In this document: one piece after another, positions 2,954-42,798 of the stretch
Layout of the letters: the number at the start of each line of letters is the position of its first letter
How positions within the stretch are numbered: position 1 is the first letter of the stretch
DNA from: Escherichia phage LL5
Reading direction: 5' to 3' (one strand)
Sequence record: NC_047985.1
DNA length: 49,788 bases
Program-made: the position numbers and the translations under genes
Notes under the pieces: generated by a model
Seen by the model: only the letters and a program-made list of their open reading frames with translations
Database searches by the model: none
What the model was told of the DNA's origin: nothing

Positions 2954-3496
2954 ATGTTTACGATCAACTTGTGGGGAAGGGATTATGTTAATCCCTATGT
3001 TGCAACAAAACAGCGTTTCGTTATTTTCGACCTAGACGGCACATTGTCAAATGGTGAGCACCGCTTGCACCTGTTGCCAACGGTTGATTTGCACCTTACT
3101 GAAAGCTGGAGTGAGTTTAATCGCGCGGCTAAGGATGATTTACCGTTCAGCAATAACATTGCCGTATGCAATGCCATGTTTGATGCAGGATATCTGGTTA
3201 TCATCCTAACAGGTCGCAGTGATGAAGTTGAAGCGGAAACGCGAGAATGGTTGGCTGAAAACGGCGTTTCTTTCGATTGGCTTATTATGCGCCGCACGGA
3301 GGACAACCGGAAAGATACCGTAATCAAAGAGGAAGTTTTACGGACTATAGGACTTGATCGTATTGTGGCGTGTTGGGATGATTCACCAAACGTTATTGCA
3401 CACCTGCGCGGCCTGGGCTTGACGGTTTACCAGGTCATTGACTACGGCGACCAGTTGCACGATCACTTAAAGTCTCACGGAGTTGAGAAGTTATGA
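2954..3496 (+). CDS. HAD-superfamily phosphatase (polynucleotide 3'-phosphatase-like)
   Basis: N-terminal DxDGT motif (FVIFDLDGTL), later ILTGR and C-terminal acidic motif; resembles the phosphatase half of T4-type polynucleotide kinase. Confidence 0.65.
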   Translation: MFTINLWGRDYVNPYVATKQRFVIFDLDGTLSNGEHRLHLLPTVDLHLTESWSEFNRAAKDDLPFSNNIAVCNAMFDAGYLVIILTGRSDEVEAETREWLAENGVSFDWLIMRRTEDNRKDTVIKEEVLRTIGLDRIVACWDDSPNVIAHLRGLGLTVYQVIDYGDQLHDHLKSHGVEKL

Positions 3497-3669
3497 AACT
3501 AAAATGCATCGGTGAATATCCAGGCTTTACGGTTGGAAACATGTACAATGCGACAATAGGAATGGATCACACATTTTGTTATGAATGCTATGTTGTCATT
3601 GATGATGATGGTGATTCACGTAGCATTGATTTCGAAACAGAGGATTTTGTAGAGGATCGCTATCTGTGA
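3493..3669 (+). CDS. hypothetical protein (58 aa)
   Basis: ATGA start/stop overlap with upstream gene; GGAG SD. Confidence 0.45.
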   Translation: MKLKCIGEYPGFTVGNMYNATIGMDHTFCYECYVVIDDDGDSRSIDFETEDFVEDRYL

Positions 3670-4480: not shown

Positions 4481-5048
4481 AATTATCATCCTAAATGCGC
4501 CTCCTGGTGCTGGTAAAGACACAATCGGCAAGATGATTTCTTTCTATTCGCCTGGTGAGCAATGCCGCATCATTAGCTTTAAAGAGCCAATGTTTGATAT
4601 TGCATTAGCTATCCTGGGCAAAGAGAACTATCAGCGTTTCATGCTGGCTTACGATGACAGAGAGCAGAAAGAAAGGCCGCAAACGTTCCTGATGGGTATG
4701 TCGCCTCGAGAGTTCATGATCTGGATTAGCGAGGATGTGATCAAGCCTAAATTCGGCAAGGATTATTTCGGCGTAAGGTTTAACCAGAAAGTAAAAGAGT
4801 GTGATGCTCCTGTTGTTTGCACTGACGGAGGTTTTCCAGATGAAATTATCGCGCTAATCAATGCTGGTAATGAAGTGAAGCTATGCCGTTTGCATCGCGA
4901 CGGGTTCACGTTTGCAGGTGATAGCCGCAACTACATTCGAATCAATCCCTATTACCAGAAAAACGGATATAGCGAGCACGATTACTTACTAACGAATGAA
5001 AAGCCGATGATTACAGTTAGCGAAATCATTCGCGATCACCTTAAATAG
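4473..5048 (+). CDS. P-loop nucleotide or polynucleotide kinase
   Basis: Walker A near N-terminus (LNAPPGAGKDT), typical of small phage dNMP/polynucleotide kinases; stop TAG inside box copy 5. Confidence 0.65.
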   Translation: MAKIIILNAPPGAGKDTIGKMISFYSPGEQCRIISFKEPMFDIALAILGKENYQRFMLAYDDREQKERPQTFLMGMSPREFMIWISEDVIKPKFGKDYFGVRFNQKVKECDAPVVCTDGGFPDEIIALINAGNEVKLCRLHRDGFTFAGDSRNYIRINPYYQKNGYSEHDYLLTNEKPMITVSEIIRDHLK

Positions 5049-5064
5049 CACGAATTGCTAAAAC
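5043..5064 (+). promoter_or_regulatory. conserved box copy 5 (AAATAGCACGAATTGCTAAAAC)
   Basis: followed by hairpin 5071-5094 (AAGGCCA/TGGCCTT, loop TTTGATATAG). Confidence 0.7.
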
Positions 5065-5132
5065 TTGCGCAAGGCCATTTGATATAGTGGCCTTATTCAA
5101 GAGAAGCAACCAATCAGAGGAATAAACGATGA

Positions 5133-5172
5133 AAATCAAATGCACCAAATCAAATGCACCAAATCAAACACC
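5133..5172 (+). repeat. 14-bp tandem repeat (AAATCAAATGCACC x2 plus 12-bp partial copy) at 5' end of ORF
   Basis: two exact units at 5133-5146 and 5147-5160; third copy lacks TG. Confidence 0.8.
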
Positions 5173-5340
5173 CTGAATCTGACAGTTGGCGCGATTTACC
5201 ATATGGAAGAAGGTGTAAACGGGTTTAGCCAGACTGTTACGCATGAATACGGCGGTCACTTCTTCTTAAACGGTAAAGACGGATTATCTGTAAATGTTGG
5301 CTCTTTCGTTCTGGCAGAATTTGAGATCGTGGAGGAATAA
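5140..5340 (+). CDS. hypothetical protein (66 aa); start context disturbed by tandem repeat
   Basis: well-placed ATG 5129 (GAGG 8 nt upstream) is out of frame; in-frame ATG 5140 has no SD. Confidence 0.4.
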   Translation: MHQIKCTKSNTLNLTVGAIYHMEEGVNGFSQTVTHEYGGHFFLNGKDGLSVNVGSFVLAEFEIVEE

Positions 5341-5341
5341 A

Positions 5342-5506
5342 ATGTTCTGGATTCATTCGCCGCAAGGATTGCTTTATGTGCCTGGCGTTGAATTGGAAGA
5401 ACGACGCGACGGCGACACGGTAAACATCATAACGAAGGATTCAAAAGGCCATACGCTTAAAACGTATGTTTTTAACACTCCAGTTAAGGTTGAAAAAGAT
5501 GATTAA
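5342..5506 (+). CDS. hypothetical protein (54 aa)
   Basis: GGAGG SD 6 nt upstream of ATG 5342. Confidence 0.45.
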   Translation: MFWIHSPQGLLYVPGVELEERRDGDTVNIITKDSKGHTLKTYVFNTPVKVEKDD

Positions 5507-10864: not shown

Positions 10865-12151
10865 ATGAGCGACAAGGTAAAGGCCATTACTAAAGAAGAT
10901 GGTTACAACGAAATTTTCGGATCTAAAGATGTAGCGTTTAGGCCAAATGCTTTTTACATGCAAAGTGCGGCATTTAAAACGTTATCGCAATTTTATGAAG
11001 AAGATGGAATGGCGCGGCGCATTGTCGATGTTATTCCCGAAGAAATGGTAACGCCTGGTTTTAAAGTTGACGGCGTGAAAAATGAAAAGTCTTTTAAATC
11101 GCGTTGGGATGAATTGCGATTAAACGCTAAAATTATTGATGCGCTTTCATGGTCGCGTTTATTTGGCGGTTCTGCAATTCTTGCTGTTGTTGCTGATAAC
11201 AGAATGCTGAAATCACCTGTAAAGCCTGGTGCACAACTTGAAGATATTCGCGTATATGATCGCTATCAGATCACCATTCAGGAACGTGAAACTAATGCGC
11301 GGAGTGTTCGTTACGGTGAGCCAAAACTTTATAAGATCTCACCTGGCGGAGATATACCGGAATTCTTTGTTCATTACTCGCGTATTTGCATCATTGATGG
11401 TGAGCGCGTATCGAATGAAAAACGCAGTCAAAATGATGGTTGGGGCGCAAGCATTTTAAACAAGCGTTTGATTGAGGCGATTATTGATTATAACTATTGC
11501 CATGAATTAGCAACGCAATTGCTACGCAGAAAACAACAAGCAGTATGGAAAGCGCGTGATCTGGCTTTGATGTGCGACGATGAAGAAGGGCGCTATGCGG
11601 CGCGTTTGCGTTTGGCTCAGGTTGATGACGAAAGCGGAGTTGGTAAGGCAATTGGTATTGATGCCACCGATGAAGAATATGAGGTTCTAAATTCTGACGT
11701 TTCCGGCGTTCCAGAGTTCTTACAGGAAAAGATTGATCGAATTGTTGCACTAACTGGCATTCATGAAATCATCCTCAAAAATAAGAACACTGGCGGCGTT
11801 TCAGCGAGTCAAAACACGGCGCTAGAGACTTTCTATAAGTTAATTGATCGCAAGCGCGGAGAGGATTACAAGCCGATTCTTGAATTCCTTTTGCCGTTCA
11901 TGATCTCAGAAGCGGAATGGTCTATTGAATTCGAACCGTTAAGCGTTCCGAGTGATAAGGACAAAGCTGAAATTATGGCTAAGAACGTTGAATCTGTTGT
12001 AAAATTGAAAGCTGAACAGGCAATTAATCTCAAAGAAACAAGAGACACTTTGCGATCCATTTGTCCAGATCTTAAAATTATGGACAATGACAACATTGAA
12101 TTGCCAGAGCCGGAAGATTTAGATCCAGAGCCAGGGCAAGAGGGGGATTGA
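10865..12151 (+). CDS. portal protein
   Basis: 428 aa immediately after large terminase; GGGGG SD; acidic C-terminus. Confidence 0.8.
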   Translation: MSDKVKAITKEDGYNEIFGSKDVAFRPNAFYMQSAAFKTLSQFYEEDGMARRIVDVIPEEMVTPGFKVDGVKNEKSFKSRWDELRLNAKIIDALSWSRLFGGSAILAVVADNRMLKSPVKPGAQLEDIRVYDRYQITIQERETNARSVRYGEPKLYKISPGGDIPEFFVHYSRICIIDGERVSNEKRSQNDGWGASILNKRLIEAIIDYNYCHELATQLLRRKQQAVWKARDLALMCDDEEGRYAARLRLAQVDDESGVGKAIGIDATDEEYEVLNSDVSGVPEFLQEKIDRIVALTGIHEIILKNKNTGGVSASQNTALETFYKLIDRKRGEDYKPILEFLLPFMISEAEWSIEFEPLSVPSDKDKAEIMAKNVESVVKLKAEQAINLKETRDTLRSICPDLKIMDNDNIELPEPEDLDPEPGQEGD

Positions 12152-14998: not shown

Positions 14999-15973
14999 AT
15001 GTCTAAAGAAATGAAATATGATGAGTTTGAAGCAAACGTGATCGCCAACCATATGCAGTTACGCGGCGCTAAAAACGACGCATCTGATATGGGTATTTGG
15101 ACGGCTCAAGAGCTTCATAAAATTAAGGCTCAAGCCTATGAAAAAGAATATCCGGCAGGTTCCGCACTGCGTGTATTCCCTGTAACGTCCGAGCTTTCCG
15201 ATACTGATAAAACTTTTGAATACCAGACTTTCGACAAAGTAGGTCACGCAAAAATCATTGCTGATTACACTGATGATCTGCCAACTGTTGACGCGCTGAT
15301 GACTTCTGAATTTGGTAAAGTGTTCCGCCTGGGTAATGCGTTCCTGATTTCCATTGACGAAATCAAAGAAGGTCAACGCACTGGCAAGAGCCTTTCCACT
15401 CGCAAGGCAAACGCCGCACAGAATGCGCATGATCAGCTTGTAAACCACCTGGTTTTCAGAGGTTCTAAACCGCACAAAATTATCAGTGTGTTTGAACATC
15501 CGAACATCACAACTATCGACTCAGGCGGCTGGAATAACGCAACAGGTACGACTAAGAATCCTGAACGTGCACAGGATGAATTAGAGCAAGCGATTGAAAA
15601 AATCGAAACGCTGACCAACGGGCAGCACCGAGCTACTCACATTCTGATCCCGCCGTCAATGCGTAAAGTTCTGATGGTTCGTATGCCGGAAACAACCATG
15701 AGCTATCTTGATTATTTCAAGCAGCAGAATGGCGGTATCACTATCGAATCCATTTCCGAGCTTGAAGATATCGACGGCTCAGGCACTAAAGCTGCACTGG
15801 TTTACGAAAAAGATCCGATGAATATGAGCATCGAAATTCCAGAAGCGTTTAACATGCTGACCGCGCAGCCTAAAGACCTGCATTTCAAAGTACCTTGTAC
15901 TTCTAAGTGTACTGGTCTGACGATTTACCGTCCGTTGACGCTGGTTCTAATTAAAGGTCTTGTGAACGGCTAA
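14999..15973 (+). CDS. major capsid protein
   Basis: 324 aa, largest head-module ORF after scaffold; GAGGG SD; followed by strong terminator. Confidence 0.75.
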   Translation: MSKEMKYDEFEANVIANHMQLRGAKNDASDMGIWTAQELHKIKAQAYEKEYPAGSALRVFPVTSELSDTDKTFEYQTFDKVGHAKIIADYTDDLPTVDALMTSEFGKVFRLGNAFLISIDEIKEGQRTGKSLSTRKANAAQNAHDQLVNHLVFRGSKPHKIISVFEHPNITTIDSGGWNNATGTTKNPERAQDELEQAIEKIETLTNGQHRATHILIPPSMRKVLMVRMPETTMSYLDYFKQQNGGITIESISELEDIDGSGTKAALVYEKDPMNMSIEIPEAFNMLTAQPKDLHFKVPCTSKCTGLTIYRPLTLVLIKGLVNG

Positions 15974-15989
15974 TAATTAGATTAATATA

Positions 15990-17574: not shown

Positions 17575-18087
17575 ATTATCTGTTGCGGCAAGAATGGCGC
17601 TGGCTCAAGAATACGAAAGCGAATATATGATCGCTTATGAAAACGTTGAATTTACTCCACCAAAAGGCGGAGGCATTTGGCTTAAATATGACTACAAAGA
17701 AGCAGATACAATAATTCATGATCTGAAAAGGAAATGCATTAGCTATATTGGAATGGTTCAGATCGGAATTGAATTCCCGCCAGGCTCAGGAATTGATAAG
17801 GCTCGCAAGCTGGCAAAAAATATTGCTGATTTCTTTGAAGATGGTAAAATGATCTGAAAAGGAAATGCATTAGCTATATTGGAATGGTTCAGATCGGAAT
17901 TGAATTCCCGCCAGGCTCAGGAATTGATAAGGCTCGCAAGCTGGCAAAAAATATTGCTGATTTCTTTGAAGATGGTAAAATGCTTGCGAATGGTTATATT
18001 TCAGAAGGTGCAAAAGTGCATCCAGTTCAGAAATCAGAATCAGGCTGGTTTTATCCAGTACGTTTTTATGTTCGTTATGATGGTTAA
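17564..18087 (+). pseudogene. tail terminator-like gene split by a perfect 131-bp tandem duplication
   Basis: ORFs 17564-17857 and 17884-18087 share MVQIGIEFPPGSGIDKARKLAKNIADFFEDGKM; removing one copy restores a 130-aa ORF. Confidence 0.6.
17718..17982 (+). repeat. perfect 131-bp direct tandem duplication (2 copies plus shared ATG)
   Basis: 17718-17848 identical to 17849-17979 by eye. Confidence 0.9.
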
Positions 18088-31852: not shown

Positions 31853-34363
31853 TTACTTAGTAAGCTGAACAAGCATTGCTTTCATTTCAGCCATTGCGGT
31901 TTTCATTTCAGTAATTTCTTCTTTCATTTCCTCATTGTCTTTTTGTAACTCTTGAATCACAACAATAAGATCAGAAACAACAGCGCGATCATTAACGTTC
32001 ATGATTTCGAATTCATCACCATTTTCATCTGTTGCAGTGCCGCCAAAGAAAACGTAAGTATCATCTATTTCAGCCATTTGTTGCGCAAGATAACCACGCT
32101 GCAAAACATTATTTCCCTTATATGAAAACTCCATTACACCAATCTGCTTAACTCGATCCCACGCACCGACCTTTGGTTTTTCAAAGCGATCTTTAATCCT
32201 AACGTCAGACCCCTGAATTGCCACCACTCCTAGCGGCGTATTCATTATGCCGTCATCCCTAATTGAATAACTCAAACTTGAGCCATTCGATTTTGTAAGT
32301 TGCCAAGAGTAATATGTAATACCATCAACAGCGGTAATGATGTAGTTTGTTACACCGCAATTTGAATTTGCCAGATAGGAAAGCTGGTTAATTTTGTATG
32401 AATCATTTGTTTGCTGATCTGCAAGTTTTTGCACAGCCGCAACATCGGAACCACCAGTACCATAAAAAGCCCTTGAAAGCGCATTGCCTGGAATAGTAAG
32501 GTTTCCATCAGATCCAAAAATCATAACAGATGTATTATCACCAACAGCACTTATTTTTGCTTCGGTTATCCCATTTCCTATTGTTTGCGATGCATAAAAA
32601 TCAGCGCTAAAGTTGTCAGCAGTTCCAACTTTATATTTAGATTGAATCTTACCTCCAGTAACAAAAGTTCCCTGTTGTGGCAATTCTTTATCACCATTAA
32701 TAACGCTCCATGAAGTATTAGCAGCAATAAATCCGCCAAATGCTCGAATAACCCAAACACCAACAAAGTTTTTAGGAATTATGTTGTTTGAAATAGCATA
32801 TCTGCCATATACAGAATCGCTTCTTTCTGCGTTAAAATTAGTTGTAGCATTATTACGTATTCTACCAAAAGTCCCATCATTCGGTAAAAATGTTTCCTCT
32901 GTAGAAGATGCATATCCGAAAGCTCCAGATACAGTTCTAGGGGATGGCATCCATACTTTACCACTAGTATCATTAGCAAATGTACCGATTATATTTGGTG
33001 CAGCCGCTTGATAAATACGCCCATCTTCTGATGAAGTACCACCATCACCACGACCGAAAAGGCTTGTAACTGATCCAGGTTGAACACCGTTTCTATCAGG
33101 TACACGGAAAGTTGTAGTTCCGTCGCCTGTAGAATATCTGCCCCTTTTTTCTACATCAGCAAGCCAATCAGAATCACTAATCGGGCTTAATAGTTGTGCA
33201 TAAGACCATAACTCTGGATAATCTTCTCTTGATAGTAGTTGTCCGTCAGATGTTATCTCATACGGCTGTATATATGCTCGTGAATCTCTTAGGTGAAAAT
33301 CACCCACACCATAATTCATAACGCCATTCATAGTTGGGCCAAGAATCCCAGAATTTATTCTATTTTCCACCCATCGCACTGTTGTGGCATCATAATCGTT
33401 AACTGGGTCACCAGCTAGAGGAGTTGGTCCTATAGGCCGAACGTTAAGCCATGCCGCAGCGCGATCCGCGATACCATCAAGATTATCTTTCTTTAGGAAT
33501 GCTTCAGATATTGATGGAACTTTTAAATTTGCCCTCGCTTCTTCAATGTTTGCTATATCATTAAGATTCTGATCTTTATGCAACATATTGTCTGGATTAA
33601 CCTGTTGCGCCCATTGGCGAGCTTCATCACGCGCAGTTTCAGCGCCAGACTTTGCATTATCAGCACCAACCTTTGATTGCTCTGCGGCTAATTGTGCGTT
33701 TTCAGCTTCATCACGCGCGTCTAATGCTTCATTTTTAATTCCGGTTATCTCAGTAACGGCAGAATCTTTAATCTGTTGCGTTTGGTTTTTTATTGCGTCC
33801 GTGTCTGCCTTAATCTGATTGGTTTCAGCAATAGCGGAATCTTTAATCTGTTGCGTTTCATTAACAGCGGCATCTTTAATTTGTTGAGTTTCATTTACAG
33901 CAGAATCCTTAATCTGTTGCGTATCATTTTTTAATTGTTCGGTTGCAACTTTATCAGCGGCAACTTGTGCGGCATCAGCATGAACCTTATTGATTAAATC
34001 CTGCAATTCTTTCAGATCAAAATTCCTGAAAAAGTCAAGAGCTTCCTCAATGACCGTTTCTTTGCTTTGATAATAACGCAGCGTTTCCGCTACATCTTGC
34101 GCCATTCCGTCAACAGTTAACGAGTCATTCAACAGGATCACATATTTACCATCAGAAACAACAGCGCCATCAGTGCTAATAGCCTTCATTTCAGTGTCGC
34201 TAACAATTTCACTAATAACGGCAAGCTGAATAACTGGTTGCTCAAGAAATACAATGGTTGCGCCAGTGCGAATTAATGACAAAGGTTCACGCCATTTTGT
34301 TCCAGTGCCAGTAATAACGCCTTGTGCGTCCATAGCGGCGGTTCCAATACGATATAAAGCCAT
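31853..34363 (-). CDS. tail fibre with C-terminal intramolecular chaperone (peptidase S74-like) domain
   Basis: 836 aa; C-terminus SDVRIKDRF...coiled-coil [26 protein letters not shown]; 11-aa repeats in N-terminal part. Confidence 0.8.
33750..33935 (-). repeat. imperfect 33-bp tandem repeats inside tail fibre gene
   Basis: about 5 copies of GAATCTTTAATCTGTTGCGTTTCATTAACAGCG-like units. Confidence 0.7.
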
Positions 34364-42133: not shown

Positions 42134-42358
42134 ATGAGGGACTTTCTTTTAATGGCGCAAAACTCTTTCGGAGGTGCAACGGTAGTTGGATCTTTTACTG
42201 GTGAGTTTTTGCTTGCACTTGCTACGTTTATTTTGTTCGCTATTTTCGGCTGTTGGGGCGCATGGCTGAAATGGCGTGATAGTAAAGCGATCCGAGAGGC
42301 TTTAGATTCAGGGGATTTAAAAACAGCGCTTAATCTACGGCAGAAAGAGAGGGTATAA
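42134..42358 (+). CDS. holin (dual-start, two TM segments)
   Basis: GAGGA SD; dual-start Met pattern MRDFLLMAQ; two hydrophobic helices; directly upstream of endolysin. Confidence 0.7.
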   Translation: MRDFLLMAQNSFGGATVVGSFTGEFLLALATFILFAIFGCWGAWLKWRDSKAIREALDSGDLKTALNLRQKERV

Positions 42359-42798
42359 TGACAATCAAGAAAGGTATAGCCGCCACCGTCACAGGGGCGG
42401 CTTTAATGTTGGCATCGCCTTTGATTGAAGAAATTGAGGGCGTAAAGTATAAGCCTTACAAGGATATTGCTGGAATCTGGACGGTATGCCACGGCATTAC
42501 CGGAAAGGATGTGATTCTTGGAAAGGAATATACCAGGAGAGAATGTGACGCGCTATTAGCAAAGCATATGAAAGTAGCGGCTGACGCTGTTGATAAGGCG
42601 GTTAATGTTGAAATTCCTTTATCAATGCGAGCGGCTTTATACTCATTTACTTTCAATGCTGGTACTGGTGCGTTTCGTAAGTCAACCATGCTGAAAAAGA
42701 TCAACAATGGTGATCTATGGGGCGGTTGTGGCGAGCTATGGAACTGGACATATTACAGGAACCCTAAAACGGGTAAAAGGAAAAATCAAGAGGATTGA
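42358..42798 (+). CDS. endolysin (GH24 lysozyme, possible N-terminal SAR anchor)
   Basis: catalytic region EEIEGVKYKPYKDIAGIWTVCHGIT; N-terminal Gly/Ala-rich weakly hydrophobic segment. Confidence 0.9.
   Translation: MTIKKGIAATVTGAALMLASPLIEEIEGVKYKPYKDIAGIWTVCHGITGKDVILGKEYTRRECDALLAKHMKVAADAVDKAVNVEIPLSMRAALYSFTFNAGTGAFRKSTMLKKINNGDLWGGCGELWNWTYYRNPKTGKRKNQED

What the first reader, a model, noticed from the sequence alone, without database searches (positions are those of the whole stretch)
5117..5172. 14-bp tandem repeat puts the well-placed start codon of an early gene out of frame
AAATCAAATGCACC occurs twice (5133-5146, 5147-5160) plus a 12-bp partial third copy. The ATG at 5129 has a GAGG Shine-Dalgarno 8 nt upstream but terminates after 15 codons; the long ORF starts at ATG 5140 inside the first repeat unit and has no Shine-Dalgarno. 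Deleting one 14-bp unit would put ATG 5129 in frame with the same protein (MKIKCTKSNTLNL...). Short tandem repeats at a gene's 5' end are a classic substrate for slipped-strand mispairing, so this could be an on/off switch, a recent inactivating slip, or a sequencing error.
Basis: seen in the sequence. Interest (0 to 1): 0.5.

Follow-up and report, generated by a model that had tools for sequence, protein, structure and literature searches.

The report
Real 14-bp duplication displacing a start codon
Coliphage LL5 carries a genuine, strain-specific 14-base tandem duplication that knocks the normal start codon of a small early gene of unknown function out of frame; it is an ordinary replication-slippage mutation, not a sequencing error and not a demonstrable genetic switch.

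Summary
The window is Escherichia phage LL5 (a T1-like Tlsvirus). AAATCAAATGCACC occurs twice in tandem (5133-5160), followed by 8 further matching bases. The Shine-Dalgarno-preceded ATG at 5129 now stops after 15 codons. The long ORF, the Tls gp15 orthologue (phrog_9122, unknown function), opens at ATG 5140, 19 nt from the SD.

All 24 other sequenced phages with this gene (29 records), and every orthologous viral or metagenome contig, have one unit and start at the SD-ATG with MKIKCTKSN. Several carry AAATCAAA twice, 14 bp apart, which is the microhomology that would template this duplication.

An independent k-mer reassembly of LL5's own 454 reads (Logan, SRR9134807) reproduces both units exactly. 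The same reassembly removes a second perfect duplication in the record (131 bp, splitting the tail terminator), which is an untrimmed contig-end overlap.

Best reading: a real, single-step slippage duplication in the sequenced LL5 stock. It probably leaves gp15 weakly expressed, with MHQ replacing MK at the N-terminus. No data support an evolved on/off switch. Interest is low.

The parts
5043..5063 (+). 21-nt Tlsvirus direct-repeat element (AAATAGCACGAATTGCTAAAA) that heads the gp15 expression module
   Evidence: Matches the consensus aaATAGCACnnnTTGnTAAAA described for TLS (PMC11447400). There are 18 copies in the window against 0.34 expected.
5080..5088 (+). Extended -10-like element TGATATAGT (inferred promoter; transcription start inferred near 5095)
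   Evidence: It is aligned with TGnTATAAT-like motifs at the same position in the 15 aligned DR modules. It was not found by the simple -35/-10 scan because there is no canonical -35. This part is inference.
5117..5120 (+). Shine-Dalgarno GAGG serving the native start codon
   Evidence: duplex dG -6.0 kcal/mol. It lies 8 nt (6 nt from the duplex end) before ATG 5129. It is annotated as the RBS of the orthologue in Sazh, Stevie and U136B.
5129..5176 (+). Native start codon, now opening a 15-codon out-of-frame ORF (MKIKCTKSNAPNQTP, stop TGA 5174-5176)
   Evidence: sequence. The orthologous ATG is the annotated start of the 65-aa protein in eight fetched relatives.
5133..5146 (+). Repeat unit 1 (AAATCAAATGCACC); contains ATG 5140
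5147..5160 (+). Repeat unit 2, identical to unit 1. One of the two units is the 14-bp insertion relative to all relatives.
   Evidence: ins_in_window, len 14, TANDEM_DUP versus Tls, MBBL140 and Sazh.
5161..5168 (+). Partial copy AAATCAAA. This is the downstream arm of the ancestral 8-bp microhomology.
   Evidence: Relatives such as Sazh, ZerotoHero, U136B and metagenome contig L046 read AAATCAAATGCACCAAATCAAAC.
5140..5340 (+). gp15-orthologue ORF as it stands in LL5 (66 aa, MHQIKCTKSN...; GenBank AWY04317.1 / YP_009802517.1); phrog_9122, unknown function
   Evidence: The repaired 65-aa protein matches phrog_9122 over positions 1-64 of 64, E = 5e-35.

Best explanation
This is a real, lineage-specific 14-bp tandem duplication in the sequenced stock of phage LL5. 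It most likely arose in one step by replication slippage between two copies of AAATCAAA that lie 14 bp apart at the 5' end of the Tls-gp15 orthologue. Because 14 is not a multiple of 3, the native SD-preceded ATG (5129) now reads a 15-codon dead-end peptide. By accident the duplicated unit contains an ATG (5140) that falls in the gp15 frame. The gene therefore stays open and would give a protein differing only at the N-terminus (MHQIK... instead of MKIK...). That start has no Shine-Dalgarno of its own, lies 17-19 nt from the GAGG, and sits inside the footprint of ribosomes initiating at 5129. The inferred result is a strong reduction of gp15 synthesis (a hypomorph or near-null allele). The phage tolerates this because gp15 is a small accessory early protein. 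Shown here: the duplication, its uniqueness to LL5, its presence in the reads, the ancestral microhomology and the native start. Inferred: the slippage mechanism, reduced expression and dispensability.
For: (a) The repeat is perfect. (b) All eight aligned orthologues have one unit and start at the SD-ATG. All 17 orthologous loci among the fetched phage, IMG/VR and metagenome sequences have one unit. All 29 phage records (24 distinct phages) holding the segment have the single-unit length, 75 nt against 89. The 14 other listed members of the 31-member 90%-identity protein cluster are all 65 aa. (c) No other sequence in IMG/VR holds the two-unit junction. One hit to a degenerate junction pattern is an unrelated jumbo-phage contig. 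(d) The window is phage LL5. SRR9134807 is its own 454 read set, and the Logan reassembly of those reads is 100% identical across 5080-5200 including both units. (e) That same reassembly differs from the record only by one-base homopolymer lengths and by lacking the 131-bp duplication. It is therefore a meaningful independent check. (f) The repaired protein matches phrog_9122 end to end from M1, and M1-K2-I3-K4 are invariant in 14 relatives. (g) The DR element lies 74-78 nt upstream of the SD-ATG in 13 of 15 other modules. At gp15, ATG 5129 is 84 nt away (79 nt in Sazh-type relatives, whose leader is 5 nt shorter) and ATG 5140 is 95 nt away. This is the only well-formed module whose SD-ATG does not open a long ORF. 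(h) The SD spacing is 6-8 nt for ATG 5129 and 17-19 nt for ATG 5140, and the region has no significant RNA structure. (i) The rest of the ORF is intact, with one singleton substitution (P30Q). Other family members carry comparable singletons, which fits a recent event.
Against: Both assemblies use the same ~20x 454 read set, so a library-level artefact or a mixed population cannot be excluded without counting reads. No expression data exist. A-rich unstructured leaders can support SD-independent initiation, so ATG 5140 might be used more than I infer. Nothing shows when the duplication arose (in nature or during propagation on DH5-alpha), or whether it is neutral.
Confidence: 0.75

Rival explanations
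1. The duplication is real and was selected. Lowering or abolishing gp15 was advantageous on the isolation or propagation hosts (a clinical ETEC isolate, then E. coli DH5-alpha), so a slippage mutant swept the stock.
For: LL5 was propagated on DH5-alpha before sequencing. The two-unit allele is the one assembled by both assemblers, so it is at least the majority allele. No single-unit LL5 variant of the protein exists in the 15-billion-protein collection.
Against: There is no functional information on gp15: no hits in Pfam, PADLOC or PDB and a low-confidence structure model. Single-plaque bottlenecks can fix neutral mutations without selection. All other isolates, many also grown on K-12 or B strains, keep one unit.
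Confidence: 0.12
2. The extra unit is a sequencing, library or assembly artefact, and the true LL5 genome has one unit.
For: The deposited record demonstrably contains artefacts. One is a 131-bp untrimmed contig-end overlap that splits the tail terminator. Another is a probable A5-to-A4 homopolymer error that truncates the endolysin. Coverage was only 19.9x of 454 data.
Against: An independent k-mer reassembly of the reads contains both units within a 17.9-kb contig that runs straight through the site. The k-mers spanning the unit-unit junction can only come from reads that contain it. The record-versus-reassembly differences attributable to 454 are one-base homopolymer changes, not 14-bp duplications. 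The artefact mechanism that explains the 131-bp repeat (joining identical contig ends) does not apply at 5133.
Confidence: 0.07
3. The array is an evolved, reversible slippage switch (contingency locus) that toggles gp15 between SD-driven expression (1.6 copies) and low or no expression (2.6 copies).
For: The repeat sits at the 5' end of a coding region and changes the frame of the SD-ATG. With 22 bp of self-homology offset by 14 bp, the two-unit allele should lose a unit far more readily than a random sequence (inference). The phage encodes its own RecE/Erf-type recombination functions, judged by orthology with the annotated Tls and Sazh genes.
Against: No repeat-number variation appears in 24 other phages or in any orthologous contig. 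There are only 2.6 copies, whereas known contingency tracts have many units. The microhomology is not conserved as a repeat: it reads AAATTAAA or AAATAAAA against AAATCAAA in DanielBernoulli, MBBL140, 011D2, Tls and Stevie. No minority single-unit LL5 contig or protein is on record.
Confidence: 0.04

Closest known systems
Microhomology-mediated tandem duplication by replication slippage (Streisinger-type slipped-strand mispairing; named from general knowledge)
   Same: The copies are perfect and head to tail. The ancestral allele has short direct repeats (AAATCAAA) whose spacing equals the unit length. It is a single-lineage derived state, and exact loss of one unit restores the family sequence. 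The result is a frameshift.
   Different: Nothing essential differs. The only twist is that the duplicated unit happens to carry an ATG that lands in frame, so the ORF is re-started rather than destroyed.
Simple-sequence contingency loci / phase-variable genes of bacterial pathogens (e.g. tetranucleotide tracts in Haemophilus and Neisseria; from general knowledge)
   Same: A tandem repeat at the 5' end of a coding region whose copy number sets the reading frame relative to the start codon.
   Different: There are only 2.6 copies of a 14-nt unit. No copy-number polymorphism was seen among relatives. The repeat is not conserved as such in orthologues. The host is a lytic phage, with no evidence of switching.
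Untrimmed terminal overlap of a circularly assembled contig (assembly artefact)
   Same: This is what the other perfect tandem repeat in the same record (131 bp, 17718-17982) is. It served here as an internal control.
   Different: The 14-bp repeat is reproduced by reassembly of the reads and does not lie at a contig junction, whereas the 131-bp repeat disappears on reassembly.
Tls gp15 family (phrog_9122), small early proteins of Tlsvirus phages
   Same: The LL5 ORF is 92-98% identical to family members over residues 3-65 and sits at the same place: after dmk, behind a DR module and before gp16.
   Different: LL5 alone has its native start out of frame and is annotated from an internal ATG (66 aa, MHQ...).

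Membership tests
Microhomology-mediated tandem duplication (replication slippage) | Perfect head-to-tail repetition of a short unit | tested here: met
   TRF: 2.6 copies, 100% matches, 0% indels.
Microhomology-mediated tandem duplication (replication slippage) | The unduplicated (ancestral) allele carries short direct repeats whose spacing equals the duplicated length | tested here: met
   Sazh, ZerotoHero, U136B and metagenome contig L046 read AAATCAAA-TGCACC-AAATCAAA, which is 8 bp repeated at a 14-bp offset.
Microhomology-mediated tandem duplication (replication slippage) | Derived state confined to one lineage; precise removal restores the orthologous sequence and reading frame | tested here: met
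   Zero of 24 other phages have two units. Removal gives MKIKCTKSNTLNL..., 98% identical to P0006.
Simple-sequence contingency locus (phase-variable switch) | Repeat tract placed so that copy number changes the frame or the promoter spacing of a gene | tested here: met
   The tract begins 4 nt after the native ATG, and 14 is not a multiple of 3.
Simple-sequence contingency locus (phase-variable switch) | Copy-number polymorphism among close relatives | tested here: not met
   One unit in every orthologue found in the phage, IMG/VR, metagenome and genome collections.
Simple-sequence contingency locus (phase-variable switch) | Copy-number heterogeneity within a population | not testable with these tools
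   Raw reads cannot be mapped here. Only consensus assemblies are available, and no single-unit LL5 protein is on record.
Simple-sequence contingency locus (phase-variable switch) | Long tract of many units conserved as a repeat in orthologues | tested here: not met
   There are 2.6 copies in LL5 and 1.6 in relatives. The arms differ (AAATTAAA or AAATAAAA against AAATCAAA) in five of the eight aligned relatives.
Sequencing/assembly artefact | Disappears when the reads are assembled independently | tested here: not met
   The Logan SRR9134807 contig is identical over 5080-5200. By contrast, the 131-bp repeat does disappear.
Sequencing/assembly artefact | The type of change matches the platform's error profile (454: homopolymer length) | tested here: not met
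   All differences between the record and the Logan contigs are one-base homopolymer changes. The 14-bp unit is not a homopolymer.
phrog_9122 / Tls gp15 family | Full-length profile match beginning at the SD-preceded ATG | tested here: met
   The repaired protein matches residues 1-64 to profile positions 1-64 of 64, E = 5.4e-35. The N-terminus MKIK is invariant in relatives.

The most novel reading that the evidence does not exclude
The 14-bp array is a reversible, slippage-driven expression switch for an accessory early gene of a lytic T1-like phage. LL5 would have been caught in the low-expression state, with stocks interconverting between 1.6-, 2.6- and higher-copy alleles at useful frequencies.
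Probability: 0.04. Interest if true: 0.5.

Novelty: new member of a known kind. Interest (0 to 1): 0.12.

Why it matters
Biologically it matters little. It is one strain-specific mutation in a hypothetical gene. At most it shows that full gp15 expression is dispensable for LL5 growth on laboratory and ETEC hosts, which makes LL5 a natural hypomorph for anyone studying phrog_9122.

Practically it matters for annotation. The LL5 reference record (MH491968 and its RefSeq copy) annotates gp15 from a start codon with no ribosome-binding site. The record also contains a 131-bp assembly duplication that splits the tail terminator into two 'genes', and a probable homopolymer error that truncates the endolysin. 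LL5 is a component of a commercial product, so a corrected reference has some value.

Tried and rejected
(1) Programmed frameshifting from the 15-codon ORF into the gp15 frame. The required shift is -1, and there is no X XXY YYZ slippery heptamer in 5129-5176. The CCC-UGA at its end is, from general knowledge, a +1-prone site, and +1 leads into the wrong frame. Rejected by reading the sequence.

(2) Regulatory RNA structure around the starts, or coupling to the downstream gene. The folds of 5095-5210 and 5290-5380 are no more stable than shuffles, with z-scores +0.29 and +1.03.

(3) Function of gp15. Pfam gave only a sub-threshold DUF7244 hit (E = 0.05). PADLOC and PDB sequence searches were empty. 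The single-sequence AlphaFold model had pLDDT 52 and was all-beta, so no fold search was run.

(4) A possible paralogue at 3493-3669 that shares MK(I/L)KC. BLASTP gave E = 0.01 over 23 residues, and the protein belongs to different PHROGs. It is not a paralogue on this evidence.

(5) Gene decay in LL5 gp15. There is one unique substitution (P30Q), but singletons are common in the family, so this is uninformative.

(6) Collection scans. Nearly all of the metagenome and genome hits to the 18-base pattern were chance matches; only L046 was orthologous. The single degenerate-junction hit, L096, is unrelated.

(7) Checking the endolysin indel against the Logan reassembly. The exact products of the window's endolysin, spanin and neighbouring 371-aa gene are not on record, so this stayed unresolved.

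Full report
**1. What is there**

AAATCAAATGCACC occurs at 5133-5146 and again at 5147-5160, followed by AAATCAAA (5161-5168). That makes 2.6 perfect copies.

GAGG lies at 5117-5120, 8 nt before ATG 5129. That frame reads MKIKCTKSNAPNQTP and stops at TGA 5174-5176. ATG 5140, inside unit 1, opens the 66-aa ORF 5140-5340.

The repeat is not a chance feature. None of 300 Markov-resampled genomes contained a comparable perfect tandem repeat. The only imprecision in the finding is the '12-bp' partial copy, since only 8 bases match perfectly.

**2. What the genome is**

Similarity searches place the window in the genus Tlsvirus (Drexlerviridae, T1-like), about 94-95% identical to phages Tls, MBBL140, DanielBernoulli and Sazh.

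An exact-sequence look-up identifies it as Escherichia phage LL5, 49,788 bp. The 66-aa ORF is annotated there as HOT39_gp15 (AWY04317.1 / YP_009802517.1).

The ORF is the orthologue of Tls gp15. It sits between the dNMP kinase gene and gp16. It belongs to phrog_9122, which has no known function. Pfam, PADLOC and PDB searches add nothing, and a single-sequence structure model is unreliable.

**3. Comparison with orthologues**

In an alignment with eight relatives, the only large difference at this locus is a 14-bp insertion in the window. Every relative has one unit and starts its annotated 65-aa protein at the SD-preceded ATG.

Widening the survey gave the same result:
- All 17 orthologous loci among the fetched phage, IMG/VR and metagenome sequences have one unit.
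- All 29 phage records (24 distinct phages) that contain the segment have the single-unit length.
- The 14 other listed members of the 31-member protein cluster are all 65 aa.
- The two-unit junction is found nowhere else.

The repaired LL5 protein is 92-98% identical to relatives. It matches the PHROG profile from residue 1. M1-K2-I3-K4 are invariant in the family.

Relatives such as Sazh, ZerotoHero, U136B and a metagenome contig read AAATCAAA-TGCACC-AAATCAAA. That is an 8-bp direct repeat at a 14-bp offset, exactly the microhomology that slipped-strand mispairing needs to create this duplication in one step.

**4. Is it real or an artefact?**

The LL5 announcement (PMC6606918) states the following:
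- The genome was sequenced by 454 FLX Titanium and assembled with Newbler at 19.9x coverage.
- The reads are SRR9134807.

The public Logan assembly is an independent k-mer reassembly of those same reads. It encodes the identical 66-aa product on a 17.9-kb contig and is base-for-base identical to the window over 5080-5200, both units included.

This check is informative because the same reassembly does not reproduce the window's other perfect tandem repeat. That repeat is 131 bp x 2 at 17718-17982. It is absent from 49 or more relatives and splits the tail terminator gene into 97-aa and 67-aa fragments. The Logan contig has one copy and an intact 130-aa tail terminator. The 131-bp repeat is therefore the untrimmed overlap of the contig ends, an artefact of the record.

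All remaining differences between the record and the Logan contigs are one-base homopolymer lengths. This is the characteristic 454 error. The endolysin's truncated C-terminus is of the same kind, A4 in LL5 against A5 in three relatives.

A precise 14-bp duplication is not that kind of error and is present in the reads. What cannot be settled here is whether a minority of single-unit molecules also exists. No single-unit LL5 version of the protein is on record.

**5. Context and likely consequence**

The intergenic region upstream carries one of the 21-nt direct-repeat elements described for TLS (aaATAGCACnnnTTGnTAAAA; PMC11447400). It lies at 5043-5063. The window has 18 copies against 0.34 expected.

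In 15 other modules the element lies 64-78 nt upstream of an SD-preceded ATG that opens a real ORF, and in 13 of them the distance is 74-78 nt. An extended -10-like TGnTATAAT motif lies in between.

At gp15 the SD-ATG (5129) is 84 nt away, or 79 nt in relatives with a 5-nt shorter leader. ATG 5140 is 95 nt away. This is the one well-formed module whose SD-ATG no longer opens a gene. So gp15 is the first cistron of its own module, and ATG 5129 is the first AUG after the inferred transcription start.

A simple initiation analysis gives the same -6.0 kcal/mol SD duplex for both starts. Its spacing is 6-8 nt for ATG 5129 and 17-19 nt for ATG 5140. The leader is essentially unstructured.

From this I infer three things:
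- Most ribosomes start at 5129 and make the 15-aa peptide.
- Ribosomes initiating at 5129 occlude ATG 5140, which lies 11 nt downstream.
- gp15 (as MHQIKC...) is therefore made at a much reduced level.

The in-frame ATG exists only by arithmetic. The unit's ATG is 11 nt from the native start, and 11 minus 14 is -3. LL5 is viable and used commercially, so wild-type gp15 expression is evidently not required on its hosts.

**6. Alternatives**

*Evolved phase-variation switch.* This fails the tests that could be run. There is no copy-number polymorphism among relatives. The array has only 2.6 copies. The repeat arms are not conserved in five of the eight aligned relatives. Within-stock heterogeneity could not be tested.

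*Selection for loss of gp15 during propagation.* This is possible but untestable here.

*Programmed frameshifting, RNA structure and polarity on gp16.* These were considered and found unsupported.

**7. Verdict**

It is best explained as an ordinary, recent, microhomology-mediated slippage duplication that displaces the native start of an accessory early gene.

It is a new instance of a well-known kind of mutation. Its main practical value is for correcting the LL5 reference annotation. Interest is low (0.12). The residual novel reading, a reversible slippage switch in a lytic phage, has about a 4% probability.

Noticed in passing
window 17718-17982: A perfect 131-bp x 2 tandem duplication splits the tail terminator gene into 97-aa and 67-aa ORFs, both annotated 'tail terminator' in the LL5 record. 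It is absent from 49 or more relatives and from the Logan reassembly of LL5's own reads, which has an intact 130-aa protein. The paper says the contig had identical ends and was reopened, so this is an untrimmed contig-end overlap, an artefact of the deposited record.
   Followed up: yes
window 42775-42779 (endolysin ORF 42358-42798): LL5 has AAAA where Tls, MBBL140 and Sazh have AAAAA. This shifts the frame and truncates the endolysin to 146 aa, against 163-164 aa in Tls and MBBL140. It is probably a 454 homopolymer error. It could not be checked against the Logan assembly because the exact products are not on record.
   Followed up: partly
window, 18 sites (e.g. 1340, 1752, 3970, 5045, 6350, 30280, 36098, 38556, 39880 on +; 35495, 45430, 48475, 49153, 49502 on -): The 21-nt Tlsvirus direct repeat ATAGCACnnnTTGnTAAAA lies at a strikingly fixed distance (mostly 74-78 nt) upstream of SD-preceded start codons. 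An extended -10-like TGnTATAAT motif lies about 22 nt downstream of the TTGnTA. The repeats are described for TLS (PMC11447400), where their role is left open. The layout looks like a promoter-plus-upstream-element module with a fixed leader of about 33 nt.
   Followed up: partly
window 33810-33929 (minus-strand tail fibre gene): A 33-bp tandem repeat, 3.6 copies at 82% identity. LL5 has one 33-bp unit more than Sazh at 33828, which is an in-frame copy-number difference inside the tail fibre gene.
   Followed up: no
window ~40118 (junction of the Tls gp63/gp64 orthologues) and ~12142-12146, ~28761: One-base indels relative to all three whole-genome relatives, at or near gene junctions. They may be further 454 homopolymer errors or harmless intergenic differences. 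They were not inspected individually.
   Followed up: no
L094 868-1841 (Logan contig SRR9134807_8; corresponds to window ~15000-15975): In the Logan reassembly the major capsid gene is split into 273 and 51 aa by an A-run one base shorter than in the deposited record (window 15807-15811). Here the k-mer assembly, not the record, carries the 454 homopolymer error.
   Followed up: partly
Database records OR786094.1 (L002/L010) and MG065688.1: 'Streptococcus phage MBBL140' (listed host S. agalactiae) is a Tlsvirus about 95% identical to this coliphage over 96% of the first 25 kb. A 'Campylobacter phage A110b' record also matches the gp15 upstream region. The host labels look implausible for T1-like enterobacterial phages, so they may reflect contamination or mislabelling.
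   Followed up: no
window 3493-3669: A small ORF that also starts MKLKC..., like gp15's MKIKC.... The similarity is marginal (BLASTP E = 0.01 over 23 residues) and it falls in different PHROGs (25234/12851), so it is probably not a paralogue.
   Followed up: partly
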